Origin: Enoplolaimus lenunculus
Taxonomy: Eukaryota
Direction of reading: 5' to 3'
Length of the DNA stretch: 60,630 bases
NCBI GenBank assembly: GCA_030248215.1
Contig: JASANG010002067.1
Coordinates: 434,001-494,630, forward strand
Shown here: positions 18,801 through 60,630 of the stretch, one piece after another
How positions within the stretch are numbered: the first letter of the stretch is position 1
Layout: every line of letters begins with the position of its first letter
Notes under the pieces: generated by a model
What the model was told of the DNA's origin: nothing
Databases searched by the model: none
What the model saw: only the letters and a program-made list of their open reading frames with translations
Program-made: the position numbers and the translations under genes

Positions 18801-21419
18801 AATTGAGCTTATGCTTATACTTCTTAAACCTCGGTTTAGGCATAGGCTTAGAGTAGGGCTTGGCTTAAACTTATGTTAAGGCGTGGGATTAAGATTAGGT
18901 AGGTTTAGACTACAGATGTCCCGGGGCCAGCATTTTGCCCTTGGCTGAAGCCAGGATTTTGACCGCGGCCGGGGCCAGCAAAACACTAAACTTCAAATTT
19001 TATGTACCTTTTCCGTAAACATATACCTGGGAGCACAGCACCGTTTTATCATGTCGCGTTACGCGACATTTTCTTGATACTCCAATCTTGTGAATGTCTG
19101 TTTTATGTAATGTGCCTCCGAAATAGAACGCTTGATGCGCTTAGGCTAAACACTAAAAATTCAAAATGTTTTTCTGGTACTGTCCACAGTACCGTATACC
19201 CCCGACACCCTCTGGCCCCGGTGCCGGTACGAAACCTATTGCACTACTTTTAAGTAATTATAATAGGTATATAGTTTTACCGATAATTTCAAATTCACCC
19301 ACCGAACGCAATATTCATAGCCAGGAAACAAACTCAGGGAACCTGTAGCCAACTACCCAAGACAACAAAAATTATTCGATAGGCAGGCATGGAACTTAGA
19401 ACAACAAAGAGATCATCTCACAAAACTAAAACAACAAGCGCAAACACAGATTACTGTACGGAGCTACTGAAGATATTTATGATCAGCTTAAAATTGCAGG
19501 CTTAACTGGTTTATACTAACGCTTAGGCTTATAATACTTCAGAAAAGTGAACAAAAGCCCAATTCCCAAAACTAACTGATTCATTAAGTTTTATTTTACG
19601 GTTTCAAATTCAGACAAACCCGTTCGCCCGTGTTAATCAAAGGGGTCTTTTCACTAAAGCCTAAGCCTAATTTCTGAGTTTCTAAGTCCTGTCTCCCTCT
19701 CACCCGTGAGCAGGCATCTGTAATTAGCATGGACCAACCCGTTACAAACTGATTTAGGTTTCAATGTCAAAATTTGACTTTTTGCATTAAAGCATCACTT
19801 AAGTCCAAAGTTAAATTATTAAAAACGGCTGTTCACTTCAAATGCGTTTACGGGTTGCCACTCGAAAAAGTGTGCTTTGGTTGACGATCTTTCAGCTGAC
19901 AAAAATACAATAACGCTGAGAAAATCGCTGCACCAAAAGGTCACGTAAGATGCAATATATAGGCGGCTAAGTATATTGTTAGCTTCAATACCAAGAGCAA
20001 ATCGATTGGATCTAGAACTCAGAATTAAAGTCAGAAGTCAGAGTCGGCCAATCTCATATCGAACACCTACCGAGAGAGCTTGGATCGATCGCTGGTACGT
20101 ACGATTTTAAAAAATTTAAAAATGAGCAATCAACTGCGTTAAGCTGGCTTATGCTAGACTAATACGCACTTAGACATAGGTATACCTTCATACTAGTGCT
20201 TAGGTTTAGGTGTTTAGGATTAAGCTTAGAAAACCAGAAGATTGGGAATAGGAGAGTAAAAAACTATGTAGGTGACCAGGAAACTGATAGACTAGAAAAC
20301 ACAAAGGCAGCAAATCTGTGATACTGGGAGATTTTGGTAGCTATGAGACTGGGAAACTGAAAGACTTGCAAACTATGAAACGGGGAATTTGGGGAGACAG
20401 ATGGAAACCGAGAGACTGCGGAATTCCCAGTTAAAAACTATAAGTTTGGCGTTGAGAGACTTGGAATGAGGAAAATTTGTTACTGGCAGGCCATTATTGT
20501 TAACATGTGCCAAATTTAGCAATATGAATCATCGAACGTCGTATCAAAATTGATATCAATGGTTCCAAAAAACTAAAATATATGCAACAAAATGTAAAGT
20601 AACGAAATAAAAATTAATTTACGTACCGCGTGCGGTTGTTAACCGTTCCAACAGAAGAACTGGCGTTTGAGCCTCCGCAATAAAACGCCGAATTGCATCT
20701 GCTGTTTTGGCGTCTCGCAGAGCAGCGTCCAGCGATGATTGACCTTGCTGTATTTGGCTACTGCTACCTCCTGGTGTTGAACTAGCGCTTTGCTGATCCT
20801 CTAACAAAGTACAAGCTACTTTGCGAATATACGCCGCCACAAGCGTCCAATCGGCGAGTTCCACTGCTGCAGAAGCGGCAGGAGACCCTCCATCTCCTGC
20901 ACTGCCTGCACCTCCAACTCCAAGTCCTGGACTACCGCCATGGTGTATTCCGGAGCTGAGACTTGCCGCCCCTAAAATTCAAAATAAACGTCTTTCACAC
21001 TAAGAGCAATCTAAACACGCTAATGGTTGAACATATCTACCAAATTGCTATTTTACAGCATTTCTAACGAATACTATCCTATATATAATATATATCTTAT
21101 AAATCTATGTAATATATATTTTTATAACTACTGGAAAAAATTACCTGGTTGTATTTAAAAATTTGATATTATTTAGATAGGTATTATATTCCTTACATAA
21201 TTGTACAAGCATTGTGAACATATAAAATTTTGTTGATGTATAAAATAATACAAAATTAACAGAATACCAAAACTGAGCTGATAAGAAACCGGATATAAAA
21301 ATAATGTCTCTGTGGTATACGTACGTATACAAACACTTACAAACCAGTCTAAACATATTATATATATATATATATATAAATGCTAACCTACCGGCACTTT
21401 CGCTTCCACTGTCTGACAT
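823..21419 (-). CDS. dhc-1: Cytoplasmic dynein 1 heavy chain, 5' part (tail and linker, about 1849 aa); the gene continues past the left edge
   Basis: 36 GT-AG exons with consistent phases: 21392-21419, 20627-20971, 17765-17867, 17422-17595, 16737-16992, 16169-16355, 15648-15868, 14735-14955, 14225-14399, 13910-14001, 13153-13369, 12832-12918, 12345-12500, 12005-12136, 11655-11861, 11063-11146, 10762-10941, 10297-10437, 9906-10052, 9450-9584, 9209-9312, 8875-9058, 8285-8404, 8016-8156, 7220-7318, 6812-6967, 6420-6533, 4675-4785, 4419-4532, 4181-4276, 3796-3942, 3372-3538, 3034-3207, 1605-1770, 1299-1484, 823-1002. Peptides characteristic of DYNC1H1: [92 protein letters not shown]. Exon 1 is the least certain. 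Confidence 0.96.
1092..1208 (-). repeat. Partial tandem duplicate of the 5' part of dynein exon 823-1002, including its splice acceptor
   Basis: 1092-1208 aligns with 897-1011: [34 protein letters not shown] versus [34 protein letters not shown]. Both are preceded by ttttaaag. Confidence 0.85.
7564..7974. mobile_element. hAT-type MITE in a dynein intron
   Basis: TIRs CAGGGTGCAACCG and CGGTTGCACCCTG; 8-bp TSD ctagcaat/ttagcaat; internal AACCGG repeats. Confidence 0.85.
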
Positions 21420-24389: not shown

Positions 24390-26346
24390 CCTTAATCAGC
24401 CCAACGGTCTACATATGTAGACAACACAACTAGCGTTAGTTTTGGCTTATCTCAGGGTGCTCTCCTCCTTTAACTGGCTTGAGACAGTCAGAACTAGTGT
24501 TCTGGCGGAGTTCCACCCGCTCCCCGTCCAGCCTCCCACTGCGGGCGCGTTGTCCAGTTAAGCACAGTCGTTGCACGTTATGGTGCGATTCATGTGGTCC
24601 TTGCACACTCGTTTTCCACATGACGAACAGCTCAATCTCGTAGATTTGCGACAACTTGTGACCTGACATTTGGTCGGTTTACCAGATGTAGAAGGTTCGT
24701 TTCGCTTTTGAGGCAGCCCGTAAGCCATAAATGAATCCTTTGATTTTGCGTAAATTTTTTCACTACTGTAACGTTTGGTCATATGGTCTTGCGCTAGTTG
24801 TTCGGCTACTTTTTTCATGAAAACATTGCGTGAATTTTGATATCCGTTCAGTTTCATGACAATGAATGCGTTGTGCAACGCAATATCAATCATATTGAAA
24901 ACGCAGACTAGAGGATAACGATTCGTTTTGCGTTTGCAGGTAAAATCATCAATGCAAGAGTCCATTACATCAACCCCGCCTTTTCCCAAATTATAATCCA
25001 AGATAACTGCTGGTTTTTTGTCCTCTCTGCTGGTGCAAACTTCGTTTTTCACATGAACTGAACTTAGTAATAGCACATTTTTATTTTTCTTTGGACAATA
25101 AGACGCCAACATTATGCGGTTATTGTGGTCCCATAAAAATCGGGTGCTATAGACCTCTTGTTCTTTTGTTGACTTTAGCACCGGAGGTACGCTGCGGCGA
25201 TTTGCCATTATTGTGCCTGTGCACGTTAGCCCACTTTGTAATAGGTCCACAGCCAATTCATGGGATGTGAAATAGCGGTCCATGAAAATGTTTCGCTGAG
25301 TGATTCGGACGGTATATAATGAAGACGTAAGTTGGACTGAAATAGGTCCCAAACATCTCGTATAGCAGCCATTTTGTCACTTTTTTGACGCTCCCGGCGA
25401 GTCAGTTTGTTGTCGAATGTTACATTTTTCAGCAACTGTTTCATTCTGTTTTTTGACAGCGCGCAGCGGTAAAAGGGCCTGCTGTCGTTTTTGGTGAATA
25501 GTGAAGCCACTGGAGACATGTTATCGCGATCTGCACCAGCTCTGATTACCACCCCAAGCCAAGCTTTCAGCTCGCACATTGGTAGCGTCGAAAAATTGCG
25601 CGCCCGCAGTCGCCTACTAGTGAGTCGCTAAATTGTATGTAAAATGGGCTCGTTTATATAGTGATAAAATGCTTGTGACTCTGTTGTAGGGTTTACTGCA
25701 GTGCCTTCGCGAAAGCGAATTATATTTCTAGCTAACACACGGACAGGCGGTGTTGTAGAATGCCACTCAACACCCGTCGCTGACAAAAACACATTACTTC
25801 CACTAGAAGTCTCGTCCATATCGCTCAACTCACTACTAGATGCGTCCGATTGTTTTTGTAATTCACCATCACTATCTTGCTCATAAATAGCAGCCTCTTC
25901 ACTACTGCATTGACCTAACTCAACTGATTCTGAGTCGTCATTTGAACTATTGTCGTCCGGTTTGTCATCTTCTGTCTCTGAATCACTTGGTTCTAATACA
26001 CGTCGTACGACCTCAGTCAAAGATAATTTATGCAAACCTGACATTTCCCTGACTTTACCTCACCATACAAAACCGTGTGTAAGAACAAAACGTTCCAATT
26101 CTTGTCAAAACTCAAACTATGATCAAATCAACATCTGTCTACATATGTAGACGGTCGGGTTATATAGGTATATGACTCACTGTACAGCAAACTTTTGTTC
26201 CCACAATGCTATAAGTTTTTTATACTACTATAACAGAATAATTATCGATGGAAATTAAACAATAGATTCTTAACTATAGCACCTGCCGAACAATCAATTG
26301 TCGAACTGGTTATGTCTACATATGTAGACTGTCGGGCCATTGAGGG
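24390..26346 (-). mobile_element. Defective piggyBac DNA transposon
   Basis: Right end ...TGAGGG|TTAA (26347-26350). The left end is a degenerate TIR CCTTAATCAGCCCAACGGTCTACATATGTAGACA preceded by TTCA. Both TIRs share the palindrome GTCTACATATGTAGAC, and they enclose a transposase. Confidence 0.9.
24558..26044 (-). pseudogene. piggyBac transposase pseudogene
   Basis: Acidic N-terminus; ELKAWLG, DKMAAIRDVWD, NIFMDRYFTS (second catalytic Asp motif), YNLGKGGVDVMD (third Asp) and a C-terminal Cys-rich domain. Disabled by an in-frame TAG at 25628-25630 and a frameshifting deletion near 25295 that removes the first catalytic Asp segment. Confidence 0.9.
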
Positions 26347-41180: not shown

Positions 41181-42056
41181 TATGAAGCCGACGGTGACCG
41201 GACAGATGGCAACCGCACAAAAGTCCGTCTGGACAAAAGCCGTCTGGGCAAAAGGCCGACCGGATAAAAGGCCCACCGGAGAAAAGACCATCCGGATAAA
41301 AGGCCGTCCAGACAAAAGGACGACCGGACCTAGACTTCTGGTTTCGGCTCCAAATCACCGATACTCAAAAAAGCAAGCCCGAGACCTGTGAAATACAGTG
41401 ACTTACCGAGACTCCCATCTCTGTACATAGAAATTTTAACTATCAAAACTGATAACTGTTGTGTGATCTGCAGTAAAAAATGTTTTCTGGTGATTTTTAG
41501 GGGATGAAGAGTTTGTGAATGATCAAAACGTCAAAACAACCTGCATGATTAGATTTTAGTTATAACATTAAATAAAAAAACAAAAAATGGAAACAAATGC
41601 TCGCTATTTTATTGCAAGGTTTATATTGCTTATTCAAATCGCTCAACCTCCATTTAGCGTGTCGTTGTTCGCCTATGGTTTAATTCAATTTTGCCAGGCA
41701 GCCTGTGTACAGGCGGATTGTGTCCAAACGACTTTTTTGCGGATAGCCTTTTATCCGGACGGCCTTTTATCCGGACGTCCTTTCGTCCAGGCGACCTTTT
41801 GTCCATGCGGCCTTTTGTACCGACAGAATTTTTTCCGGACGGCCTTTTGTCCAGGCGGCCTTTTGTCCGGACGACTTTTGCCCAGGCGGCCTTTCGTCTG
41901 GACGGTCTTTTGTCCAGGCGGGTTTTCGTTCCGACGGCCTTTTGTCGAGACGGCGTTTTGTCCGACGGCCTTTTGTCTGGACGGTGTTTTGTCCGGACAG
42001 TCTTTGGTCCGGCGACCATCTGTCCGGCGGTCATTTGTCCGGCGGCCTTCAGTATA
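41181..42056. mobile_element. Foldback-like element with arms made of about 16-bp tandem repeats
   Basis: GGACAAAAGGCCGTCC-like units at about 41185-41330 and their reverse complement GGACGGCCTTTTGTCC at about 41715-42050, around a unique AT-rich spacer. Confidence 0.65.
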
Positions 42057-47945: not shown

Positions 47946-49119
47946 GCGCGTGGGGTGGGACTCAGCGTGCATTCCGTGTCGCACTGGTGCCCACACTCGG
48001 CATCTCTTAACCTCCTAGCTATGTCGCTTCCTTGGCGTGCAACTTGTCCGTCTCAGTCTATCTTTCTAGATTGTGATCTATATATTCGTTGCCACATTAT
48101 TCCTGCCCCTATTGCTTCTTTATATGCCAATACCACTGTGCTTTACAACTTTCTGCCAAATAAGTTAAAGTTTACCTTATTTCCGGTCATTATGCTTTCA
48201 GAATCTCAAACCCCACTTTCTTACCTAATTCTAAAATGCCATATTTCCTGTGATCTTTCATATGCTCATTTCCATGTTTTCAGGAGTGCCATTCCCATTT
48301 CTAACTAATTTCCGGGTGCTCATTCCATTTCGCACCTTATTTTCTGTCAATCCTCATTCCATTTCGCACTTTATTTTCTGCCAATCCTCATTCCATTCAT
48401 TCTATTTGACATATCTCTGCTTGTCATTATTATGATCATAATCCTTGAGTTTCTGCTAGTTTTCGGGACGCTTAGCTAGTATTTTGAGAGAATTTGATCA
48501 TGCACGTGTATGGGTATTATTTCTATTGTATACATTGGGAATAGTGTTTTCGCGCATTCGTAACAAAATGATCTTATTAGTATCGGTATCACCATAAGTC
48601 AAAGACTATAAATCATAAATTTGGAATCTGCGCAATATATGTGTCATTTTATGGTTTGTTGTAATTTATAGATTTGCGGACCGTTACCGAGTTTGAACAC
48701 CAGTCGCGTCAGCTGTACTTGATAGATCTTTGCCAAATTTGGCGTAATTGTCCGTTTACATTGGACTTTCCGTATATGTATACTTTCCGATCACACGGAC
48801 CCTCGCTCGAAAGTTATCCACGGTAAAAGTCATAAATAACGCATAAGAACGCAATACGCTACGTACTAACGGACCTCAGTTCGAATTACTTGTCCTGTAT
48901 TTGTATTGCTCACCAATAAAACGTCTCTCGCTTTTAGGTCAATTTTTCGAGTAATTTTTTTGAGTTTTCCGGCTAAATATAGTTATATAACTTAGCTAGC
49001 TTGTTGGAGCGCATTCGGACACTACGGAAGGTTGTATTTTAACGGATTTTGTTGGCATTGTACGTGTCAGGTTATGTTGAAACCTGGACTTCAGATCTTT
49101 GTACTAAGCATCTGGAAAA

Positions 49120-49552
49120 GCGGGCCTCCAGAGCGGGGATCGAACTCACAGCCTACAGATCTTAAAGCGAATACTTTACCACTGCGCCACGCAGCCCGCC
49201 TCTCCAACTACCATTTTTGTCGACTATATGTGTCGATCGTATGCTGTCAGCAAGCACTCAACGCAATGTGCATTGCATTTATTGCATATGCACTAGGACA
49301 AATATATCTCGCATGCTTACATGCCCTTATTTTCAAAAAGGTCGTCCCTTGACCCCTTGAATGTACAGCCTATAGCCCGCCTCTCCAACTACCATTTTCG
49401 TCGACTACATGTGTCGGTCGTATGCTGCCAGCAAGCACTCAACACAATGTGCATTACATATATTGCATATGCACTAGGACAAACATGTTTCACATGCTTA
49501 CATGCCCTTACTTTCAACAAGGTCGTCCCTTGATCCCTTGGATGTACAGCCT
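49120..49552 (-). repeat. tRNA-like unit (49125-49197) with two tandem 181-bp upstream units; same family as 22396-22560
   Basis: The minus strand reads GGCTGCGTGGCGCAGTGGTAA...GAGTTCGATCC. Tandem units start at 49194 and 49375, and their reverse complement matches the sequence upstream of the tRNA-Val-like unit at 22483. Confidence 0.75.
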
Positions 49553-50261
49553 TGTAGGTGGTATCTCACCTTTGAATTCTGGGTTTTTACTTTTTATTTT
49601 CTAAATTACCCTCCCTCAGCTTTCCCTTTTTCTGGAGCGCCCTGGGCTCCTATTTAGCACTCTTTTTCCTATTTCTGAGCTGTGACCCCGCTGGCCAATA
49701 TCCGAGTGCGACTCTTAAGTCGTGCCGGATATTTTCCTAAAAACTTATAAAAATCTATTTTAAAAATCTAAAACAATTACCTAGCTAGGTTTGGTACGTG
49801 GTTTTTAGGGTGTTTTTAGTTGTTGTCTTTTGTTTTGTTTTTGAGTGTTTATTGCTTTGCATCCGGAAGTTGATAGTGGTTATTTTTTAAAAGTTGCGCG
49901 CACAAGAAGTAATAGTTTTCAAAGCTATTGTTTTAGAGCTAAAAATAATTCTGTAATTGTTTTACCAAATAATTCTGTGCCTTAATACGGTGCTTTATCT
50001 TATAATTTTACTTGTTACATTTACTTTGTCATTTAACTTTTATATAAATTTTCCAAACCCGTGCGTTTTCTGCGGAGCGATTGATCTTAGTTGAAGTACG
50101 GACTCATTTGCTGTTGGACCCCAAAGTTTATTTGACGCGGTGTCGAACACAATAGCTAGCTACCCGGATCACACAGAAAAGAACAGAATCAGGACACACA
50201 ACCGGATAAAGAAACACACACAACCAACCGAAACCCAAAACCGACATGGTGACCACGATGG
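49553..50261 (+). promoter_or_regulatory. Candidate 5' LTR (49553-50246) and primer-binding site (50247-50261)
   Basis: TGTAGG...CCGACA termini are inverted at 5 of 6 positions; TATAAAAA near 49746; followed directly by TGGTGACCACGATGG, which resembles the complement of a tRNA-Arg 3' end. It cannot be confirmed without the 3' LTR. Confidence 0.35.
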
Positions 50262-50416
50262 CTTCAATTCTGGCGTGATCAATTGTGACGCTAGATTCGA
50301 ACGGAAAAGGATAAAGGATAAAGGTGACAAAGACTAAAGCATAAAGTCGAGATTGTAAGTGTGCAGAATTTTATTGTCCCCCAGTTTTCAGAAATACCCA
50401 GCCTAGTATATTCGTC

Positions 50417-53400
50417 ATGTATCGGACCCCGCAACATCCTCGAGTTCCGCCATTCCCCCAGTATCATGGACATCCTGACAGCCTCCCGAATCAGATGGTT
50501 ACCAGGAATGCCTTACGACAGTACCAGAATGCACTACAAACTCAACAACATTCCCCGTCCCGAGTTACGATCCGAACTGCGTCTCCCCAGAACTCAACCC
50601 TATTGACGAGTCCTCAAGGAATTATGGAACCATCACCGGATATACACATTTCAGCACCCGTTACCCCGTTCCAAGAACCTGTAGCCACAAACACACTTAA
50701 TTTTGTAGGTGATCAGGAGAGTGCAGATCCGAACACAAGTAATGTAGCATCAGATACACAAAATCCGCTAGCTACAAAAAGCATAACTATAGATACAGAC
50801 CCGTATGTTTTAGTACCAGTAAAAACAAATTCTTTGCCCTCAAATGTTGCAACAGTAGTAACATGTATGACAGCAAATATGCAACAGTTAGCAATAACAA
50901 CTGAAGGACAGCAGCATTTGTATAATCAGAGTAACATAGCTAATATGCCACAGTTAAATACAAATGTAACACAGATAGGAACACCGGCTGGACAAATTGT
51001 CCATCCGATAGTACCCACATTAGCATACCCATATTCCTCAGCAATTTCAGGTACACATAATTATTCAGGCTATAATGTAGTCGCTTTTCCTAGTGTACCT
51101 CAAACAGTTGTGCAACCGACATGTAGTTATGCACAAAATATTTCGCAAACTCCTAACAGAGTTAATGTGCAATATTATCCCCAAAATTCGAGAAATATTG
51201 TACAACCCGTAAACGGTGTTTTGAATCCTAATACTGGATGTATTAATCCTGATATGTTAAATGCTCCTATACCTGAAACGGTACCTAAAACTTCTGCATT
51301 TCACCCTATAAGCCCTTCAGTTCATGAAAATCCTTCCGTAGTTGCAAATGTAGAAGTCAATGCACCTATAAACATGAATTCAGCTCATGGTAAGACACCT
51401 GAACAACAACTTTTATTAACATTAAATCCACAACAATTATTATTATATCAACAAACATTAATGAAAAAAGCAGATAGTTGGAATCCCCAAGATGATCCCC
51501 CAGAAGCACGAAGTCCGGAATTATTTAAGGAAACGGTTAAAACTTGGATGTTTCCGAAAAGACAAGAAAGCTGTTCGTCAACATCAATCCCGAATGCCCA
51601 ACCTAAACGGAATCACAGGAAAGATTTTTCTCCTAGTGATTCATCCGATAGAGGAAGTCGAAGTATTATTGTTGAAAGGACCAAATTAAGGGACACTCCA
51701 ACCCAAATAATAGTTAAGATGCCGGAAAAACCCCCTACTGTACCATCATACGATGGCGAATCTGATTTCGGCACGTATTTCCGCAAATTTAGTCGAACTA
51801 TGAAGTCGGCTAAAATTTCGGACAATGAGACAAAAATGAAAATATTTCGGTCAAGCCTTAAAAAATCCGCAGAAAAATATCTTGATTTTCTGGAGGATAA
51901 AAGGCACGACGCTTTTGAACCAGAAGAATTTGTTGCACTAATAGATTTATTTCATAAAAGGTTCGCGGAAACCACAGACCTGTCAAGTCGCATGGCTACT
52001 TTCCAGCGAATTGTTCAGGAGGGATCTGTGGAAGATTTTGCCGACGAATTACATGCTTATTGGGTTCGAAATTTAGAACCTCAATTTGCAAATACTTTCG
52101 AGGCAAGGGAACTTTTGTGCCAAACTTTTGTTAACAATTCAGTCCATGAGTTAAAATGGAGATTACAATTAGGTGTAACGGAGCCTTTCGATTTTGAAGT
52201 ACTCAGTAACAGGGCTGAAAAGCTACAACGACAGTTAATAGCGGATGGCACATTAACGAAAGTTAAGAGTAGTCTATCAAATAATAATAATAAGTCTGAC
52301 GGCAAGTTACAAACTCGGACGGAATCTAATTCCGCTAGAGTTCTTAGGCAACATTAGTCCAATGCGAGTCAATCGAATGTAGTTCCCAGAAACCAAACAC
52401 AGAACACCCTAAATTTAAATACTAATAACCAGAAATCTTTTCAAAATAATACCGGAAATGCCCAGAGATTACAAGCACTTAGAGACAGTGGCTCTTGTTT
52501 CTTTTGTGAACAACAAGGTCACATGTCTAGAAATTGTCCTAATAAGTCCCAAGGACAGAATCCAACAACGGGTATGGCTTCAAAGCCACTACCGTTAATT
52601 ACTTTACAGCGGGAAGAAAGCATGATTCAAATGAGTCAGGACCCAGATGTTATGCCCTGTGCATTCTGTGGTCGTACTAATCATTTGGTACAAGAGTGTT
52701 ACTTGAATCCTAAGAATAAGGTTAACACACAAATCCTTAAAATACCCCAAGCCCCACAACAAAATAAGACCACATCTGCACCACAAAATAATCAGAATAA
52801 CAATAAACCAGGTCCAAATACTGCCGCAATGGTTGCAAAACCCATGGATAATTACCCAGTGAACGATTCCTTGGCCAATAACCTATCGGGTATCCGTATC
52901 CGTAGAATGCATGAAGAAACTCCTGGTCCTATTTCAATTCAGCACAACCCTAAAATGATTGCCACCATTAATCCCAAGTCCGTCAAAGCTACCGGTGTAA
53001 ATATTGAAGTCAACTTATGTTCCTTAATGGTTACGGCAATGGTTGATACAGGAGCGGAAGTTTCGTTAATACATTCTGAAGTTTACCGGATGTTTTTCAA
53101 AGACAAAATACCCCTGGATACCTCCCAAAATGTGGTTTGCCGGACATTTGATAATTTGTCGTCTCAAACCAGCGAAGGATGTATAAATTACAGTTTAACA
53201 ATCGGAGACTGTACGAAAATGGTTGCACTGCATGTAATACCTCGAATGCAGGCTGCAATAATTTTGGGCGATGATGTACTAACGGATTTCGGTGTTGTCA
53301 AAAATTATTTCAACTCAACCGTTAGTGTTAACCGGAAAATAATTTGGCCTAGAGAAACTACGCTGGAATATATCGAGAACAAATTACCGGAACGTTTGGG

Positions 53401-53773
53401 ATACAATCTCATTCAGAAACCAGTTGTCGAAACCTTAGGTGAAAAGGTTGAAAGGGCACGCTTATCTGGAAAACATCTTAGTCCACCGGTTCGTCGGAAA
53501 CCTATGGGAATATGTTCAGGAGATGACGAAAATTGCAAGGATTTTGAAAATAAACCTATGGAACCTAAAGGTCCATTAGGTATCAAAATGGCAACACATT
53601 CAAGATGTTCGGACGTAAATTGTAAAAATCAATTGCCGCCGTCATTCCAATATCAAGGAGAAACAAAAAGGGGTACGTTAAAAGTTGCATTGTCAGAAAA
53701 CGACACTGACTTAGATCAGCGTCGAAGGGGGATTCTAAGCATGAATATACCCAGACGTGTGATCAAGATATAA
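50417..53773 (+). CDS. gag: Gag-protease, interrupted by one in-frame TAG at 52355-52357
   Basis: Long Q/P/N/T-rich N-terminus; capsid-like region (PSYDGESDFGTYFRKF...QEGSVEDFADEL); two CCHC knuckles, CFFCEQQGHMSRNC and CAFCGRTNHLVQEC; aspartic protease MVDTGAEVS...IILGDD. Confidence 0.88.
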
Positions 53774-53775
53774 CA

Positions 53776-54228
53776 TTGGCAACAATACAAAGCCCAAATA
53801 TGCGAATTGTAAACATTTGCCGAGTAGCAACGTCAGTACGAATACCGCCTAATACTACTAAATTAGTGCGATGTTGTTTACCAGATGAATTAAAGCATCA
53901 AGAAGCAGTGGTAACTGAACCAAAAGGCGTTGCAAACAAATTGTCTGAGTCCATTTTGGTTCCAAATACAATTGCGCGAACTCAAGAAGGCTGCGTTTAT
54001 CTTCCAGTTTCCAACTTTGATGCTCGGCCTGTTGCGCTGCTTAAAGGAGAAGATATTGCAAGTGTCGATACGGGTGAAGTTATTACGAACATCTTTGACC
54101 CCAAAGACTTACCGGAAACATTGGACAGTAACGAAAATAAACGGAGGGAAGATTTAACAACAAATGTTAACGCTTCCCAAATAATACAGTTAAGATTACG
54201 AAGCAACTTAAACAAGCACAGGATTTGA
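53776..54228 (+). CDS. Frameshifted PR-RT spacer segment, beta-rich and loosely dUTPase-like
   Basis: VRIPPNTTKLV...EPKG...VPNTIA...GCVYLPVSNFDARPVALLKGEDIASV, bounded by two -1 frame changes. Confidence 0.55.
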   Translation: MATIQSPNMRIVNICRVATSVRIPPNTTKLVRCCLPDELKHQEAVVTEPKGVANKLSESILVPNTIARTQEGCVYLPVSNFDARPVALLKGEDIASVDTGEVITNIFDPKDLPETLDSNENKRREDLTTNVNASQIIQLRLRSNLNKHRI

Positions 54229-57200
54229 AACAATTCTGTGATTGGTTATTGCAGCAAACTTCCCATTTACCAGAAATTCCCCTCCCTGAAGGTGAAAAGT
54301 TAGCGGAAGCTAATTTGCAACCACAACAACTACAGCTGTTGAAAGCTTTGATATATATGAATACAGACTGTTTTGGAGCTGAAAAGAAACCTTTAGGAGC
54401 TACGGGAGTGGTAAAACACAAAATAGAGGTCCAAACCCGTAACCCTATACAGCAAAAAGCTAGAAGGGCTGCATTTTCTCGACGTCAATTAATAACGGAA
54501 CATATAAACGAAATGTTAGAACAAGGTATAGTTCAGCCTTCAAAAAGTCCCTGGGCTTCCCCTGTTGTACTAGTTAAGAAAAAAGACGGTACTCTACGTT
54601 TTTGCGTCGATTACCGCCAGTTAAATGATGTTACCAAGAAAGATAGTTTCCCTCTCCCACGTATCGACGAAACGATCGACGCGTTAAGAGGATCAAAATA
54701 TTTTACCACAATAGATCTCCAATCAGGATATTGGCAGATTGAAATGGACCCAGAGGATATTGAAAAAACTGCGTTCATTAGCCATGAAGGACTGCATGAA
54801 TTTAAAGTCATGCCGTTTGGATTGACTAATGCCCCCGCTACTTTTCAGCGAATGATGCAAATGGTGTTTTCCGGATTGCTTATGGAAATTTGCCTATGCT
54901 ATCTGGATGACATCATTGTATTTTCAAAATCGTTTATGCAACATTTATTGGACCTAGAGAGAGTTTTTGGAAAATTAAGGGCAGCAGGATTAACAGTTAA
55001 GGGTAAAAAATGTGATTTTGTTAAAACGGAAGTACACTTTTTAGGACACATAGTTTCAAATGGAGGTATAAGGCCCACAAGTGAAAAAGTTCAACAAGTG
55101 AGAGAATGTCGAGTACCGACCACGGTAACAGAACTCCGTTCTTTTTTAGGTTTAACTGGATATTATAGGCAATTTGTACAAGGATACGGCATAATAGCCG
55201 CACCTTTGTATGATTTGGTTCAAGGAAATGAAAAAGGTAGAAATATTAAGGACAGATGGGATGAAAAATGTCAAGCGACATTTGAATTACTTAAGAAAAA
55301 GCTCACAGAATCCCCAATTTTAGGATATCCTGACCATAGTAAACCTTTTATTTTGTCTACTGATGCCAGTGACAGAGGTGTTGGATTTGTTTTAGCACAA
55401 ATTGGCGATGACGGTATGGAACACCCCATCCATTACGGCAGCCGTAAATTTACGCCAGCTGAAAGCCGGTATGCCGTCACGGAAAAAGAATGTTTGGCTG
55501 TGGTAAGTGCTTTTATGAAATTTAGACCCTATCTCCTTGGAAACAGAACCACCGTAATTACCGATCATGCACCTTTAACCCAAATTTTAACCAAAATTCG
55601 ATCCCTGGACGTCTTAACTCCCCGATTAATGCGTTTTGCCCTTAAACTACAAGAATTCGAGTTTGATATAATATACAAACCAGGTAAAAAGCACAACAAC
55701 GCAGATGTCTTATCCCGCCCGCCAATATTAGATGACAATTCTAACGAAATTGGAGCGGAAACTGAACCGATGGAAGAACGGCTACAGTTGCGCGAACAAA
55801 TCTTTTGCAAAGAAAATTCGTTAAATGCGGTAATAGCTCAAGTTATTCCATCCGCTGACGAAGAATTCATTCCATCTCCTCCATCCACTTCCGATAAAGA
55901 ATCCTCCGATGTCGATTGTTTCTCCACCTATTTCGAGATTGAATCTCCATGGGATAAGGAACAATTAGTAAGTGCTCAAATTGAAGATGTATATTTTGGC
56001 CCTATGATTAAATATTTAGAGGGTGAAAATATTTTAGAAAGTCAATCTCCGGAAATAAAGAAATGGGTTATGGAAAATGAAAATAATTTTGTAATTTACA
56101 AGGAGGTTTTGTATCGCGCACCACGCCGATCAAAACCTGTAAAATCGGATGCATTGGAATTTAGATTAGCAGTACCTATATTATTTAGAACTCCTCTAAT
56201 GGAGCAAGCCCATACTTCTAAGTATGGCGGTCATTTATCGTTTGATAGGGTTTTAGGAAAATTGCAAAGGAAATTCTATTGGCCTACAATGGTCAAAGAT
56301 TTGCAAAGCTTCATAGATAAGTGTATTCCCTGTACCAGATTTAAACCTGGTCCTGTACGTAAAGGTAAATTGGAACCTATCGCAGCCGTCTCTCCTTTCC
56401 ACATGATTGGAGTAGATGTTATAGGTCCATTACCAGAATCGGAAATCGGAAATAAGTATATAGTGTGTTTTATGGATTATTTCACTAAGTGGCCCGAAGC
56501 GTTTGCAACGTCTAATCAGACGGCACAAACAATAATACAACTTATAACTGATAAGATTATCCCCGCACATGGTGTTCCCCGTGTTATTCTATCAGATCAA
56601 GGACCAGCATTTGTATCTGAACTATATAAGATGGAAATGGCTCAATTAGGAATTAGACTTACGTATTCAACGCCTTATCATCACCAGGCCAATGGCCTAA
56701 TAGAGCGTTGGAATCAAACCCTTATGAAAATATTGAAACCCTTAATTGAATTAGAACCTAGAAAATGGGATACATATTTAGCACCCGCCCTTTTTGCATA
56801 TAGAACCACTGTTCATGCGTCAACTGGACAAACACCATTCTTTTTGATGCATGGCAGGGATCCTGATCTCCCGGGTGAAAATGCTTTAATGTCAACCTTA
56901 AAGGCAACAGAACCGGCAGGTTATAGTGCTCGGCTGCTGCAAGATTTATCACAGGCATGGGAAAATACTGCAAAACAAATTTTGCATTCCCAAACCAAAT
57001 ACAAGTCCTATTATGATAAAAGGGCTAAAGTAAGGGAATTTTTACCTGGTGATATTGTGGTTATGAAGAGAAAAGATAAAATAGATCCTAAGAGAATTTC
57101 TAACAAATTTCATTCCGAATTTGAAAGATTATACCGGGTAAAAGCGGTTGACGGACCTAATTTAAAATTACAATACCTAGGATCGGCAACACGAGCCGAC

Positions 57201-57302
57201 TCTTGGTATAATCAGGCTTTAGTTAAACATTTTGGAGGCTCTATTGAAGATTATTTAGCATATGAAACAAAATTAAGGGCCGGAATTTCAAATAAGGAAT
57301 AA
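54225..57302 (+). CDS. pol: Pol: reverse transcriptase, RNase H and integrase
   Basis: SPWASPVVLVKKKDG, RFCVDYR, DLQSGYWQI, MPFGLTNAPATFQ, YLDD; RNase H TDAS...EKECLA...TDH; integrase HHCC zinc motif (AH...GGH...CIPC) and DDE triad (GVD, SDQG, IERWN). Confidence 0.97.
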   Translation: MKQFCDWLLQQTSHLPEIPLPEGEKLAEANLQPQQLQLLKALIYMNTDCFGAEKKPLGATGVVKHKIEVQTRNPIQQKARRAAFSRRQLITEHINEMLEQGIVQPSKSPWASPVVLVKKKDGTLRFCVDYRQLNDVTKKDSFPLPRIDETIDALRGSKYFTTIDLQSGYWQIEMDPEDIEKTAFISHEGLHEFKVMPFGLTNAPATFQRMMQMVFSGLLMEICLCYLDDIIVFSKSFMQHLLDLERVFGKLRAAGLTVKGKKCDFVKTEVHFLGHIVSNGGIRPTSEKVQQVRECRVPTTVTELRSFLGLTGYYRQFVQGYGIIAAPLYDLVQGNEKGRNIKDRWDEKCQATFELLKKKLTESPILGYPDHSKPFILSTDASDRGVGFVLAQIGDDGMEHPIHYGSRKFTPAESRYAVTEKECLAVVSAFMKFRPYLLGNRTTVITDHAPLTQILTKIRSLDVLTPRLMRFALKLQEFEFDIIYKPGKKHNNADVLSRPPILDDNSNEIGAETEPMEERLQLREQIFCKENSLNAVIAQVIPSADEEFIPSPPSTSDKESSDVDCFSTYFEIESPWDKEQLVSAQIEDVYFGPMIKYLEGENILESQSPEIKKWVMENENNFVIYKEVLYRAPRRSKPVKSDALEFRLAVPILFRTPLMEQAHTSKYGGHLSFDRVLGKLQRKFYWPTMVKDLQSFIDKCIPCTRFKPGPVRKGKLEPIAAVSPFHMIGVDVIGPLPESEIGNKYIVCFMDYFTKWPEAFATSNQTAQTIIQLITDKIIPAHGVPRVILSDQGPAFVSELYKMEMAQLGIRLTYSTPYHHQANGLIERWNQTLMKILKPLIELEPRKWDTYLAPALFAYRTTVHASTGQTPFFLMHGRDPDLPGENALMSTLKATEPAGYSARLLQDLSQAWENTAKQILHSQTKYKSYYDKRAKVREFLPGDIVVMKRKDKIDPKRISNKFHSEFERLYRVKAVDGPNLKLQYLGSATRADSWYNQALVKHFGGSIEDYLAYETKLRAGISNKE

Positions 57303-57491
57303 GAAGATGCGGATTGTCAAATTTGCAAGGGTTCTTATTCTACTGATTTACAAACGGATTTGGTTATAGATTGGATTCAATGTGACTTATGCCTATCATG
57401 GTTTCATTTTACCTGTGTTGGTCTTATAGACGAACCAGCACAAGCCTTATGGTATTGTCCCCAGTGTTTACAAGCCCAAGGTAGCTTATGA
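57303..57491 (+). CDS. PHD finger (C4HC3) in frame with integrase, directly after a TAA; absent from the ORF track
   Basis: Translation: EDADCQICKGSYSTDLQTDLVIDWIQCDLCLSWFHFTCVGLIDEPAQALWYCPQCLQAQGSL*. All eight zinc ligands and the WIQCD, WFH and WYCP signatures are present. Confidence 0.92.
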   Translation, partial: EDADCQICKGSYSTDLQTDLVIDWIQCDLCLSWFHFTCVGLIDEPAQALWYCPQCLQAQGSL

Positions 57492-57521
57492 CTACATACG
57501 GGCTTTGTAATTGTTATAGAT

Positions 57522-58916
57522 GTGAGTATTAAAAAAGTAAAAAATTCTTTAAAAGAATTTAGTAACTATTATATAGTATTAGTGGTGTTGTGCGTAGTTT
57601 GGTTATTTTCAAAAGGTGTTATTTCAAATAGCGACGATATATTGTATGGTAAAGAGTTATTCATCGAGTGCACGATGCCAGCAACAAATTCAAAGGTGCA
57701 ATGGCCGGAGATTTTTGAAAAGCCGCCGGTTGGATCCCCAATGTATGATGCAAATCACCCGTGTCATTCCTTGGAGTATTGGGTTCCAGTACAAACGTTG
57801 ATGCGCGAATGGGGAAAGCCACGGTATGTTGGGATTTTATCAGATGAGGATCAGGTAGATGCGGCGGTAGAAATAATAAGAGCTTCAAGAACTAATATTT
57901 TAGCGTTAGATATTGAAGGAGTAAATTTTTCAAGACAAAAATACAAAACTTATATGAAAATGTTAGAAAAACACCAGGAAAATCCCAAAGAAAATCCTCA
58001 CCCTTCTAATACTAACCTTCTCCCCGACGGCCACCAAACTTATTGCCTAGAAGAATGGTGTTCTAAACCAACGGTAGTTCGTAAAAATTTAATGCGAACA
58101 CTACAAATAGGAACAACAGAAGGGGCAATTTTTATTTTTGATGTTCAGGCTTTTGGAGTAGAGATACCTAAGTCTCTATCCGAATTATTGCACGATGAAA
58201 ATTTTGTAAAATTATGGTGGAGCGTGCATAATGATAGAAATATGTGGGAAATGTTGTATGGCGATTCGAAAAACGCACCTCCAAATAAGAAATTTCCCTA
58301 CGATTCAAATACCCTAGATTTACAAAATTGCCATAAACATGCATATGGTCAAGCGGGACTAGGAGATGTCATAACCGCTTATTTTGGATACAATAAAGGA
58401 AAAACTCCATACGGTGAATACATGATGGGATATCTCCGTCAATGGACAAAAGGTCCACAGACGGTTGATACAGATGACACACGATTTATGGAGTTTATTA
58501 GGTATGCCAGTTTAGACGTCATGCTAGCTGATGTAGCTGTAGCCATGATTTGTCGGGACCCTGAAAAGATTGCAAAACGAAATTTATCGGATATTCCATT
58601 CCAACTCTTTAAGGCAATCGAAGTATTCGGAAAAGTCCACAATAGGGATATAAAAGTTAACATAATGCCAGGAGCAAACACAAAAGCTGCTTGGGAAAAT
58701 TATGCTATAACGGAAGCAACAAATTTGTGGACAATCGAATATTCATTTCAGGCAAGTCAAAAGGTAAAGGTCCCTCGTAGGAGGGCCATTTTTCAGTTAT
58801 TTCAGGACACGAATCCAATTCCAATAGATACAACAATACCCGAAGTCAAGATGAGAATGGAATTGGTGTGGCCCAGTATCGAAAGAATCCGGAGGGAAGA
58901 CGCGTTACGGGACTAA
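57522..58916 (+). CDS. Accessory ORF: DEDDy 3'-5' exonuclease domain (DNA_pol_A_exo1; WRN/EXD/MUT-7-like)
   Basis: ExoI ILALDIEG (Asp at 57909, Glu at 57915); LQIGT...IFIFDV; LSELLHDENFVK; ExoII VHNDR (Asp at 58233); LDLQ; GLGDVITAYFG; ExoIII IRYASLDV (Tyr at 58503, Asp at 58515). The true start is uncertain. Confidence 0.85.
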   Translation: MSIKKVKNSLKEFSNYYIVLVVLCVVWLFSKGVISNSDDILYGKELFIECTMPATNSKVQWPEIFEKPPVGSPMYDANHPCHSLEYWVPVQTLMREWGKPRYVGILSDEDQVDAAVEIIRASRTNILALDIEGVNFSRQKYKTYMKMLEKHQENPKENPHPSNTNLLPDGHQTYCLEEWCSKPTVVRKNLMRTLQIGTTEGAIFIFDVQAFGVEIPKSLSELLHDENFVKLWWSVHNDRNMWEMLYGDSKNAPPNKKFPYDSNTLDLQNCHKHAYGQAGLGDVITAYFGYNKGKTPYGEYMMGYLRQWTKGPQTVDTDDTRFMEFIRYASLDVMLADVAVAMICRDPEKIAKRNLSDIPFQLFKAIEVFGKVHNRDIKVNIMPGANTKAAWENYAITEATNLWTIEYSFQASQKVKVPRRRAIFQLFQDTNPIPIDTTIPEVKMRMELVWPSIERIRREDALRD

Positions 58917-60630
58917 AAAATCAAGGAAAGAGATGTGATCAATGACCCAGTGCATCATTGGCCACAATGGGCAAGGCAATGTGTCAGATGGGATGGTTTC
59001 AGAAAGCAACAAAAAGATGACCAGAAACCTAAAAAGAAATCAAAAGGTAAAAGTAAAGTTAAACAAGGTATTTTAGATTCCGAAGACGAAGAAGTCATAT
59101 TAGGATTTCCGGAATGGGCCGACCCGGAAAGACCCATAACAGGTGAAATTAGTGACGAAATGTTTGGTCCGGAAACAGAGGAAAGGAAAAAGGCTATGGA
59201 GGAACATAGAATAGCAACTGAATGGTTTAGTCAATTTATGACTGTTAAACCATCAGGACCAGGACAGAGTGGAATCGAAATCCAGGAGGCAGTGGCAGAT
59301 GAGCCACCACCTCCACCCCCAAAAAGGACCAAAACCGTACAGACCAAAAACATTAGAGGAAGTAGTTGGTATGAAACCACCCCAACCTCAGGAAATTTCA
59401 GCAATTCCGTTACCCCCAAAAGGACCAAAACCGTATAGACCAAAAACATTAGAAGAAGTAGTTGGTATGAAACCACCCCAACCTCAGGAAATTTCAGCAA
59501 TTCCGTTACCCCCGAAAGAACAACCCCAAAAAGAAACTGTGCCTAAAGAGGTGGCAAAAGCGCCAACTCTTTCAGAGGAACAGATAAGGCTTGCAAGGCA
59601 AGATACAGTTCCGTTGTTTCAACAAATGGATACTACGGAATCACCTCAAGAAACACCAATTACGGATGTTAACAGTGATTTGACAAATAGGTTAGCTGTC
59701 CAGTCAATGGAAGTTGAGAAATTTTCTGAAGAACCGACTACAATAAGTCGTACTTCAGAACCGGTTTCAGGAGTAAGTTCATACCCAAGCCCTGTTGAAA
59801 CAATTTCTCCCAGTGCAAGACTGGAGGACACAACAATCACGGAAATCGAACAGGATGTTTTCCAACAGGTGCCTTCGGAATATGAAATATTACAGATAAG
59901 TAAGAAATTTAATACATCTATTTTAGGCGAACAAGAAAAATTATCAGTTATACAACCATCGCCCGGTGTCTCCTATACACCCAAAACAACTAGTAGATTT
60001 ACAGTACCAGAGGGAGCGACGTGGATGAGTTTTATTCCATATCCTCCAGGAATCGATACCACCCGTGAACTAACGCCCCCAGGTGGATCTGTAACAATTA
60101 CGGATTTAATTAAAAATAGGATCGAGGAAATACAAAAGAAGGAATTAAAAGCAATGGCGGAAGTACAATCCGCTATGGAAAAATTTGTTCCAGAAGGCGG
60201 ATTCCCATACTACCAAATTGAACAACGGTATATTGTACTTCAGGCGGCTATTAAAAGCTTGAATGGAGTAATATTACAAAGGAATAATTTGGACCGAGAG
60301 GCAAAGGAAGCAATGTTAAAGCTTCATTATTATCAGGAATATGTCAGTATGGTGGATGATACTATTGAACAAGCAAAGTCCACCCTTCAGGCAGCTTCCA
60401 TACATACTGATTGGATGAAGGAAAACGATGAAAAATTGAGGCAGGAATATATTAAAAAATTTGCAATTCAGGAAGTTCGAATCTGCAAATTAGAACAGGA
60501 AAAGGTAAGTACTGAAAAAGTTCTAACAAAGGCAATGCAAAATTCTGTTAGAGATCATACAGAATTACTAAATTTATTGGATGATAAACGAAAATTGGAA
60601 AAGAGAATTTTGCAATTAGAAAGAAAATTA
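58917..60630 (+). CDS. Continuation of the accessory ORF: charged and Pro-rich linker, then coiled coil; open to the window end
   Basis: Same frame as the exonuclease after TAA at 58914-58916. One extra A at 59321-59325 shifts into a frame that is open from about 59323 to 60630 and ends in heptad-like sequence (ELLNLLDDKRKLEKRILQLERKL). Confidence 0.75.
59315..59518 (+). repeat. 96-bp coding tandem repeat, two copies (PKGPKPYRPKTLEEVVGMKPPQPQEISAIPLP)
   Basis: ggaccaaaaccgta starts at 59326 and at 59422. Confidence 0.9.

What the first reader, a model, noticed from the sequence alone, without database searches (positions are those of the whole stretch)
57522..58916. Gypsy retrotransposon carrying a DEDDy 3'-5' exonuclease where env normally sits
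Seen: directly after pol and on the same strand, an intronless frame contains ExoI (LDIE), ExoII (HND) and ExoIII (YASLD), plus the LQI, LL.D...K and GL..V....G scaffold. It has an insertion of roughly 50 aa between ExoI and LQIGT. Established: this DnaQ-like DEDDy family includes WRN-exo, EXD1/EXD2, Egalitarian and MUT-7/Nibbler; several of these act in small-RNA 3' trimming and transposon silencing. An exonuclease is not part of the standard Gypsy domain set. Inference: the element captured a host-type nuclease. It could counter piRNA/siRNA silencing, proofread or trim cDNA ends (RT has no proofreading activity), or handle RNA in an Egalitarian-like way. I do not know of a described element with this architecture but could not search.
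Basis: partly seen in the sequence, partly recalled or inferred. Interest (0 to 1): 0.88.

Follow-up and report, generated by a model that had tools for sequence, protein, structure and literature searches.

The report
Gypsy retrotransposon's third gene: conserved exonuclease
A multi-copy jumping gene in an animal genome carries, where retroviruses carry their envelope gene, a third gene for a predicted RNA-trimming enzyme that natural selection has preserved and that likely helps the element blunt the host's small-RNA silencing; a similar layout is already published for rotifers.

Summary
Behind a Gypsy pol lies an intronless ORF3 (probable start 57675, stop 58916) with all five DEDDy residues. 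Pfam misses it. A four-sequence profile hits Egalitarian (E 6.5e-7), and the predicted fold matches Nibbler, WRN and RNase D (Z up to 14.9). Contigs of three DNA runs show ORF3 at about the same elevated depth as pol. Deletion forms join LTR or protease DNA to points beside or beyond it, which places it inside the element. Among 22 listed differences between copies, 18 are synonymous (pN/pS 0.06-0.09). The architecture is not new: bdelloid Juno and Vesta elements carry a DEDDy ORF3 (PMC5408684), and this scan noted Rrp6-like and DEDDh ORF3s in other genomes. This one differs: canonical DEDD rather than DEED, a ~50-residue insertion shared with only three unnamed relatives, no detectable dUTPase, a probably nematode host, and measured purifying selection. 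The 3' LTR is outside the window. Activity and target are untested. Verdict: new variant of a known kind.

The parts
49553..50246 (+). Inferred 5' LTR (694 nt, TG...CA), inserted at the end of a 181-nt tandem repeat
   Evidence: Ends read; the tandem unit stops at 49552 (family D3); no second copy in the window (blastn), so the boundaries are not confirmed by a 3' LTR
50247..50264 (+). Probable primer-binding site, beginning TGG directly after the LTR's CA
   Evidence: Sequence; tRNA partner not tested
50417..53773 (+). gag-protease frame with CCHC knuckle(s) and aspartyl protease; broken in this copy by a stop at 52355-52357
   Evidence: zf-CCHC E 5.9e-6, gag-asp_proteas E 3.1e-5; contigs of all three runs differ from the window at this stop
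53710..54228 (+). Segment between protease and RT, cut off by frame changes near 53.7 and 54.2 kb in this copy; no dUTPase match
   Evidence: 0 Pfam families; no PDB match better than E 1.7; length differences in contigs
54171..57302 (+). pol: RT, RNase H, integrase (Ty3/Gypsy order)
   Evidence: RVT_1 3.1e-36, RT_RNaseH_2 3.9e-36, Integrase_H2C2 1.6e-15, rve 7.5e-11; best PDB hit Ty3 Gag-Pol 2e-107
57303..57491 (+). PHD finger in the pol frame; the stop separating it from integrase is private to this copy, so it is the integrase tail in sister copies
   Evidence: Pfam PHD E 1.1e-9; best PDB hits ING3/4, PHF2, TAF3 PHDs; the window's stop is in none of the contig depth at that site (other letters 316 of 316, 123 of 123, 146 of 146)
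57675..58916 (+). ORF3: DEDDy 3'-5' exonuclease domain (about 57820-58570) with ~50-aa insertion, followed by ~115 aa of unknown fold
58917..59438 (+). In-frame continuation of ORF3 beyond the stop, with a lysine-rich stretch; the stop is present in some copies and absent in others
   Evidence: table 3 (stop kept at depth 388 of 388 in X1, absent at 126 of 227 in X2 and 134 of 134 in X3)
59242..60630 (+). Pro/Ser/Thr-rich linker with a 96-nt tandem duplication, then a proline-free charged segment running off the window; probably the C-terminal part of a long ORF3 (>985 codons in total) in copies without the breaks
   Evidence: (family D9); copies vary in length near 59.3 kb; heptad test not significant (70 of 500 shuffles)

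Best explanation
This is the third gene of a multi-copy Gypsy LTR retrotransposon, kept by purifying selection; it encodes a DEDDy-fold protein predicted to be an active 3'-5' exonuclease that likely acts in trans on RNA 3' ends to weaken the host's small-RNA silencing of the element. Shown: five catalytic residues present and invariant in four sequences only 21-30% identical; DEDDy fold; multi-copy status; position inside the element (indirectly); synonymous bias between copies. Inferred: ORF3 is made separately from Gag-Pol (own ATG about 180 nt after the PHD stop), so it has no evident route into the particle and would work outside it. Its two-metal site would hydrolyse single-stranded RNA from the 3' end. 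The basic stretch and low-complexity linker would bring it to RNA granules, where it would over-trim or destroy guide RNAs or their precursors. Confidence that it is a selected element gene of the DEDDy family is about 0.9; the figure given is for the full mechanism.
For: Family and fold. Invariant D58, E60, D166, Y256, D260 in 4 of 4 aligned sequences. Multi-copy: contig depth relative to unique flank in run X1 is 5.3-6.8 for pol, 6.0 for PHD, 7.4-8.9 for ORF3 and 8.7 for the tail (depth is a rough guide only). Inside the element: a DNA joint 53993->59830 at depth 194 and 86 (X1, X2; 53990->59830 in X3) against flank about 52 and 21, and one X2 contig joining LTR sequence 49682-49710 to 57496. 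Contigs tile pol-PHD-ORF3 (56899-57448, 57437-57580, 57545-57760). Selection: 18 synonymous and 4 non-synonymous among 22 listed sites, 20 of 22 at third codon positions, pN/pS 0.058-0.09, p<=4e-7; one 618-nt contig gives 15 synonymous of 17 listed (18 in all), worst case 0.05-0.08. Trans action fits copies with shortened or damaged ORF3 also being amplified (shared stop; 134-nt gap at 58528-58663 at depth 156, 67, 82). Top Foldseek hits are RNA-acting enzymes (Nibbler, RNase D, RRP6), and Nibbler trims piRNA 3' ends (PMC13269885 passage).
Against: No activity, substrate or expression data. [quoted passage not shown] Structural Z-scores tie RNA and DNA enzymes (WRN 14.9, Pol I 14.6, Nibbler 14.4, RNase D 14.0), so the substrate is not resolved. 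The model is modest (mean pLDDT 55.7, pTM 0.64). Constraint beyond the exonuclease ORF is not shown (4 of 9 listed sites at third positions). All three runs come from one study and two samples, and may include the window's own source. The 3' LTR was not seen. Counter-silencing by this ORF type is speculation in PMC5408684 too, whose authors put 3'-end processing first.
Confidence: 0.42

Rival explanations
1. The nuclease serves the element's own replication: trimming the 3' end of genomic RNA or primer, clearing RNase H leftovers, or editing cDNA ends (proofreading for RT).
For: Favoured in principle by PMC5408684 and PMC6431247. WRN and Pol I exonuclease domains score as well as RNA enzymes; NanoRNase C is the second family in the profile search (E 0.003).
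Against: ORF3 is not fused to Gag or Pol, so packaging needs an unknown route. Copies with shortened or damaged ORF3 are amplified, which fits any trans function but not a cis requirement.
Confidence: 0.27
2. It is an Egalitarian-like RNA-binding adaptor: the exonuclease fold grips the element's RNA and the long tail links it to a transport or granule machine; catalysis is secondary.
For: Egalitarian is the best sequence match (18-21% identity in structural alignments, the highest listed). Egl keeps DEDDy without needing it and binds I-factor RNA. Two of the three relatives are also long low-complexity proteins (1836 and 1696 aa).
Against: No LOTUS-like or other Pfam domain is detected. The domain is net acidic (pI 5.5), whereas Egl binds through basic surfaces. 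The heptad test on the tail is not significant. The short form lacking the tail is multi-copy.
Confidence: 0.22
3. It is a host retrogene or neutral passenger next to, or recently swept into, the element.
For: 3' LTR not in the window; no single contig spans the element; the genomic context of the three relatives could not be fetched.
Against: Depth matches pol, not the flank; deletion joints bracket it with element DNA; pN/pS below 0.1 between copies; no host-type nuclease among the 4 hits in 1.84 billion representatives.
Confidence: 0.06

Closest known systems
DEDDy ORF3 of bdelloid rotifer LTR retrotransposons Juno1/2 and Vesta2/5 (and Athena/Terminon PLEs); Rodriguez, Kenefick, Arkhipova 2017, PMC5408684
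   Same: Ty3/Gypsy-type element, PR-RT-RH-IN order, separate ORF3 in the env position encoding an RNase D-like DEDDy exonuclease with intact catalytic residues and no transmembrane segment.
   Different: There the motif is DEED; here it is DEDD. Those clades carry a dUTPase, not detected here. Here integrase ends in a PHD finger (not mentioned for those elements, which lack a chromodomain), and ORF3 appears to extend to about 1000 codons or more in some copies. The host is probably a nematode. Selection on the DEDDy ORF was not measured in that paper (only env and GDSL ORFs, which looked neutral within the genome).
Egalitarian EXO domain (Drosophila; PDB 9uju, 9rvy)
   Same: Best profile match (E 6.5e-7); DEDDy residues align one to one.
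   Different: Egl is a host protein with N-terminal LOTUS-like domains and a basic helical RNA-binding extension; none detected here. Egl lacks the ~50-aa insertion.
MUT-7/Nibbler/EXD3, WRN-exo, EXD1/EXD2, RNase D/RRP6 (PF01612 group)
   Same: Same fold (Foldseek E 4.7e-6 to 1e-3; Z 12-15) and motif order.
   Different: 10-17% identity; no HRDC, helicase or Mut7-C domain by Pfam; below any Pfam threshold; no single subfamily stands out.
Chromatin-reader-tipped retrotransposon integrases (chromoviruses; PHD-bearing retrotransposons)
   Same: Reader domain at the integrase C-terminus; PMC6673714 states that PHD and chromodomains are widespread in retrotransposons.
   Different: A PHD, not a chromodomain; its pairing with a DEDDy ORF3 was not found in my searches.

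Membership tests
DEDDy (DnaQ-like, RNase D/WRN/Egl group) exonucleases | ExoI D-x-E, ExoII D, ExoIII Y-x3-D in order | tested here: met
   all five present, aligned to Egl's residues, invariant in 4 of 4
DEDDy (DnaQ-like, RNase D/WRN/Egl group) exonucleases | RNase H-like DnaQ fold | tested here: met
   Model pLDDT 55.7; Foldseek E 4.7e-6; Z 14.9, rmsd 3.1 over 173 residues to WRN exo
DEDDy (DnaQ-like, RNase D/WRN/Egl group) exonucleases | Reaches the Pfam PF01612 gathering score | tested here: not met
   0 families at E<=1 for the ORF; relative P0002 scores 13.1 bits against a cut-off of 23.6. Reflects divergence; the fold and motif tests pass
DEDDy (DnaQ-like, RNase D/WRN/Egl group) exonucleases | Metal-dependent 3'-5' exonuclease activity | not testable with these tools
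   Needs an assay
Ty3/Gypsy LTR retrotransposon | PR-RT-RH-IN order with Ty3-like RT | tested here: met
Ty3/Gypsy LTR retrotransposon | Paired LTRs enclosing all ORFs, with target-site duplication | tested here: inconclusive
   5' LTR and PBS inferred; the window ends at 60630 inside the element; no genome held. Indirect support from deletion joints
Juno/Vesta DEDDy-ORF3 elements | DEDDy ORF3 downstream of pol | tested here: met
Juno/Vesta DEDDy-ORF3 elements | DEDD changed to DEED | tested here: not met
   Paper statement; here the ExoII residue is D, in 4 of 4
Juno/Vesta DEDDy-ORF3 elements | dUTPase domain between PR and RT | tested here: inconclusive
   No Pfam or PDB match, but the segment is frame-broken here and the paper used the more sensitive HHpred
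Juno/Vesta DEDDy-ORF3 elements | RT and ORF3 cluster with the bdelloid sequences in a tree | not testable with these tools
   Bdelloid sequences were not returned by any search, so no tree was built
Egalitarian orthologues | N-terminal LOTUS-like domains before the EXO domain | tested here: not met
   Only about 50 residues precede the exonuclease core from the first ATG; no Pfam hit; Egl layout
env-bearing Gypsy elements | ORF3 with transmembrane anchor or fusion-protein homology | tested here: not met
   No 19-residue window above hydropathy 1.8 from the ATG to the window end; the part beyond 60630 is unseen

The most novel reading that the evidence does not exclude
A previously undescribed family of retroelement-borne DEDDy nucleases, marked by a ~50-residue insertion and fused to very long low-complexity tails, was captured independently of the rotifer case. 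It is an element-encoded suppressor that destroys small-RNA guides from their 3' ends, turning a Nibbler/MUT-7/Egl-type host enzyme against the silencing pathway, in an element that also reads active chromatin with a PHD-tipped integrase.
Probability: 0.25. Interest if true: 0.8.

Novelty: new variant of a known kind. Interest (0 to 1): 0.47.

Why it matters
The rotifer report left open whether exonuclease ORF3s do anything for their elements. Here the gene shows strong purifying selection between copies, in another animal lineage and with a different sequence type. That points to repeated capture of 3'-5' exonucleases by LTR elements and to a real function. The domain is intact in this copy and can be assayed as it stands. 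If it degrades small RNAs, it would be an enzymatic counter-silencing protein of an animal retrotransposon, something I did not find described in nine full-text searches.

Tried and rejected
No whole genome is held, so copies, the 3' LTR and the target-site duplication could not be read directly. No RNA holder was listed; this says nothing on expression. Word-indexed homologue searches: single sequence, 0 hits among 1765 candidates; profile on longer proteins, only P0003 itself among 6269; profile on near lengths, 0 among 2224. Of the 4 hits I dropped P0004 (E 1.3e-5, six short repeated stretches, no exonuclease motifs) as spurious. Locus searches found no relative: viral contigs, metagenome contigs. 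Single-sequence folding failed (pLDDT 33). NCBIfam gave nothing relevant. The atlas search of unnamed clusters gave one giant-virus exonuclease cluster at 0.91 and two rows under 0.9; viral fold hits are giant-virus and phage exonucleases at 7-18% identity. Neither shows a viral donor. The tail has no similarity to the tails of P0001 or P0003, P0003 none to gag, and no PDB match better than E 0.34. A coiled coil in the tail was not supported. The LTR-to-57496 joint was considered as a splice product and rejected: the ends are not GT-AG and it starts upstream of the LTR's first TATAAA at 49746. The bacterial promoter scan does not apply to this host. No tRNA gene in the window. No phylogeny was built, since only four family sequences were in hand. 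PMC5890265, a lead from earlier notes on PHD-tipped integrases, has no 'PHD' in its main text. PMC3286476, PMC13524379 and PMC12440569 had no relevant passage.

Full report
Observation. The frame 57492-58916 (+) is open for 474 codons behind a pol frame 54171-57302. The ORF has no Pfam hit at E<=1 and only E 0.77 to Egalitarian among PDB sequences. An exhaustive HMMER search of 1.84 billion representatives returned 4 proteins. Three (P0001-P0003, E 9e-13 to 3e-8) are real relatives, unnamed single-member clusters from metagenome assemblies; the fourth was dropped as a repeat artefact. In the four-way alignment (21-30% identity) the five catalytic residues are invariant, and all four sequences have a long insertion after ExoI. 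The profile finds Egalitarian (6.5e-7), NanoRNase C (0.003), trypanosome RNase D (0.015) and a mut-7 homologue (0.033). The alignment-based model (pLDDT 55.7) matches Nibbler, RNase D, RRP6, Egl, EXD2 and WRN by Foldseek, and WRN, Pol I exo, Nibbler and RNase D at tied Z of 14-15. The family call is secure; the subfamily and substrate are not.

The element. Upstream lie an inferred 694-nt LTR (49553-50246, TG...CA) followed by a TGG-starting primer site, a long gag with CCHC knuckle and protease, and RT-RNase H-integrase closest to Ty3. This copy is dead: a stop in gag at 52355-52357, frame changes near 53.7 and 54.2 kb, and a stop before the PHD. Contigs of the three runs differ from the window at these places, so the breaks look private to this copy, and integrase ends in the PHD in sister copies. 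After the ORF3 stop the frame stays open to 59438, and a second frame 59242-60630 runs off the window. The ORF3 stop is present in some copies and absent in others, and copies differ in length near 59.3 kb. The family therefore appears to hold both a short ORF3 and a long one of more than about 985 codons, like P0001 (exonuclease at the N-terminus of 1836 aa). The tails share no sequence similarity.

Is ORF3 part of the element? The 3' LTR is outside the window and no genome is held, so the evidence is indirect. It comes from Logan contigs of three DNA runs (one study, two samples, possibly the window's source). Relative to unique flank, contig depth in X1 is 5.3-6.8 over pol, 6.0 over the PHD, 7.4-8.9 over ORF3 and 8.7 over the tail; X2 is similar, and X3 is noisier (4.9-17.7) (the tool warns that depth is no copy number). 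Overlapping contigs tile pol, PHD and ORF3; none spans the whole. A joint from about 53993 to 59830 stands in all three runs, at about four times flank depth in X1 and X2: a deletion derivative that has itself multiplied, which places DNA beyond ORF3 in the same mobile unit as the protease. One X2 contig joins LTR sequence (49682-49710) to 57496; this is a single contig and weak alone. No listed loose end shows the PHD followed by other DNA (15 of 19 loose ends shown).

Selection. One search lists the 40 best-supported of 175 differences in 57150-59500. Of these, 22 fall in 57672-58913, and all 22 were classed: 20 at third codon positions, 18 synonymous, 4 non-synonymous; pN/pS 0.058-0.09 across transition weightings, p from 1.5e-9 to 3.8e-7. 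One 618-nt contig has 18 differences, 17 of them listed and 15 synonymous; counting the unlisted one as non-synonymous gives 0.05-0.08. For comparison, 18 of 30 listed gag-frame sites are at third positions, and only 4 of 9 in the stretch after the ORF3 stop. So the exonuclease ORF is at least as constrained as gag, while constraint on the linker is not shown. Against a strict need in cis: a 134-nt gap just after ExoIII is itself at raised depth in all three runs.

Host. Introns and dynein heavy-chain exons show a eukaryote. Thirteen TTAGGC-dimer matches against 0.23 expected suggest a nematode; TTAGGC is the C. elegans telomere repeat (abstract start of 10.1101/292722). This is a lead, not an identification.

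Mechanism. Shown: an element gene with a complete DEDDy site under purifying selection. Inferred: because ORF3 is separate from Gag-Pol, lacks a membrane anchor and tolerates damaged copies, it most likely acts in trans outside the particle. Its top Foldseek and profile relatives act on RNA, and one, Nibbler, trims piRNA 3' ends. I therefore put counter-silencing by 3' trimming first (0.42), processing of the element's own RNA or cDNA second (0.27), and Egl-like binding third (0.22). The last cannot be dismissed, since Egl keeps all five residues without needing them, but this domain is net acidic. A passenger or host gene is unlikely (0.06).

Prior knowledge. PMC5408684 (read: parts 1-3 of 5, abstract to discussion; figures and supplement not seen) reports DEDDy ORF3s in bdelloid Juno and Vesta, acquired at least twice, with DEED, and with activity undemonstrated. 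PMC5718144, PMC6431247 and PMC6338049 (passages) repeat this. PMC13186709 and bioRxiv 2025.08.03.668247 (passages) give the Egl facts. PMC6673714 (passages) notes PHD fingers in retrotransposons. PMC13269885 (passages) showed no element-encoded exonuclease among the 12 passages returned. Nine full-text searches found no non-rotifer LTR element with a DEDDy ORF3. Repbase, GyDB, subscription journals and supplements were not searchable or not read, and could hold one. Earlier notes of this scan describe Rrp6-like and DEDDh ORF3s and PHD-tipped integrases in other genomes; none resembles this sequence by shared words, and none is from this genome. They are unchecked notes, not support.

Verdict. 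Real, element-borne and selected; the layout is known from rotifers; the sequence family, host lineage, PHD pairing and selection evidence are new. New variant of a known kind, interest 0.47.

Noticed in passing
window 57303-57491 (+): PHD finger as the integrase tail, best matching ING, PHF2 and TAF3 fingers (known as H3K4me3 readers, recalled); may steer insertion to active chromatin.
   Followed up: partly
window 53993 joined to 59830 (runs X1-X3): Multi-copy internally deleted derivative that lacks pol, PHD and the exonuclease but keeps gag-protease and the 3' part of the tail; a non-autonomous subfamily.
   Followed up: partly
window 58914-58916 and 58528-58663: Both a shared stop after the exonuclease ORF and a 134-nt gap just after ExoIII occur at raised depth, so short and damaged ORF3 forms have been amplified.
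   Followed up: partly
proteins P0001-P0003: Three unnamed metagenome proteins of 435-1836 aa share the inserted DEDDy domain; two have very long low-complexity and charged regions. Their genomic context is unknown.
   Followed up: partly
window about 1000-21000 (-): Exons of a dynein heavy chain gene (DHC_N1, DHC_N2).
   Followed up: partly
window 24558-26059 (-): Broken piggyBac-type transposase (DDE_Tnp_1_7, E 6e-22).
   Followed up: partly
window 49086-49552: Very high-copy repeat with a 181-nt tandem unit, at whose end the element sits (depth about 50000 against 52 for unique DNA in X1).
   Followed up: no
window 41198-41322 and 41700-42043: 16-nt minisatellite arrays in inverted orientation, resembling a foldback or MITE-like element.
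   Followed up: no
window 11387-36554, scattered: Thirteen TTAGGC-dimer matches, 0.23 expected; nematode telomere-type repeat.
   Followed up: partly
window 57202-57239 (loose ends): Very deep contigs of a related Gypsy family match only a short stretch at the integrase end; whether that family also has the PHD and ORF3 is unknown.
   Followed up: no
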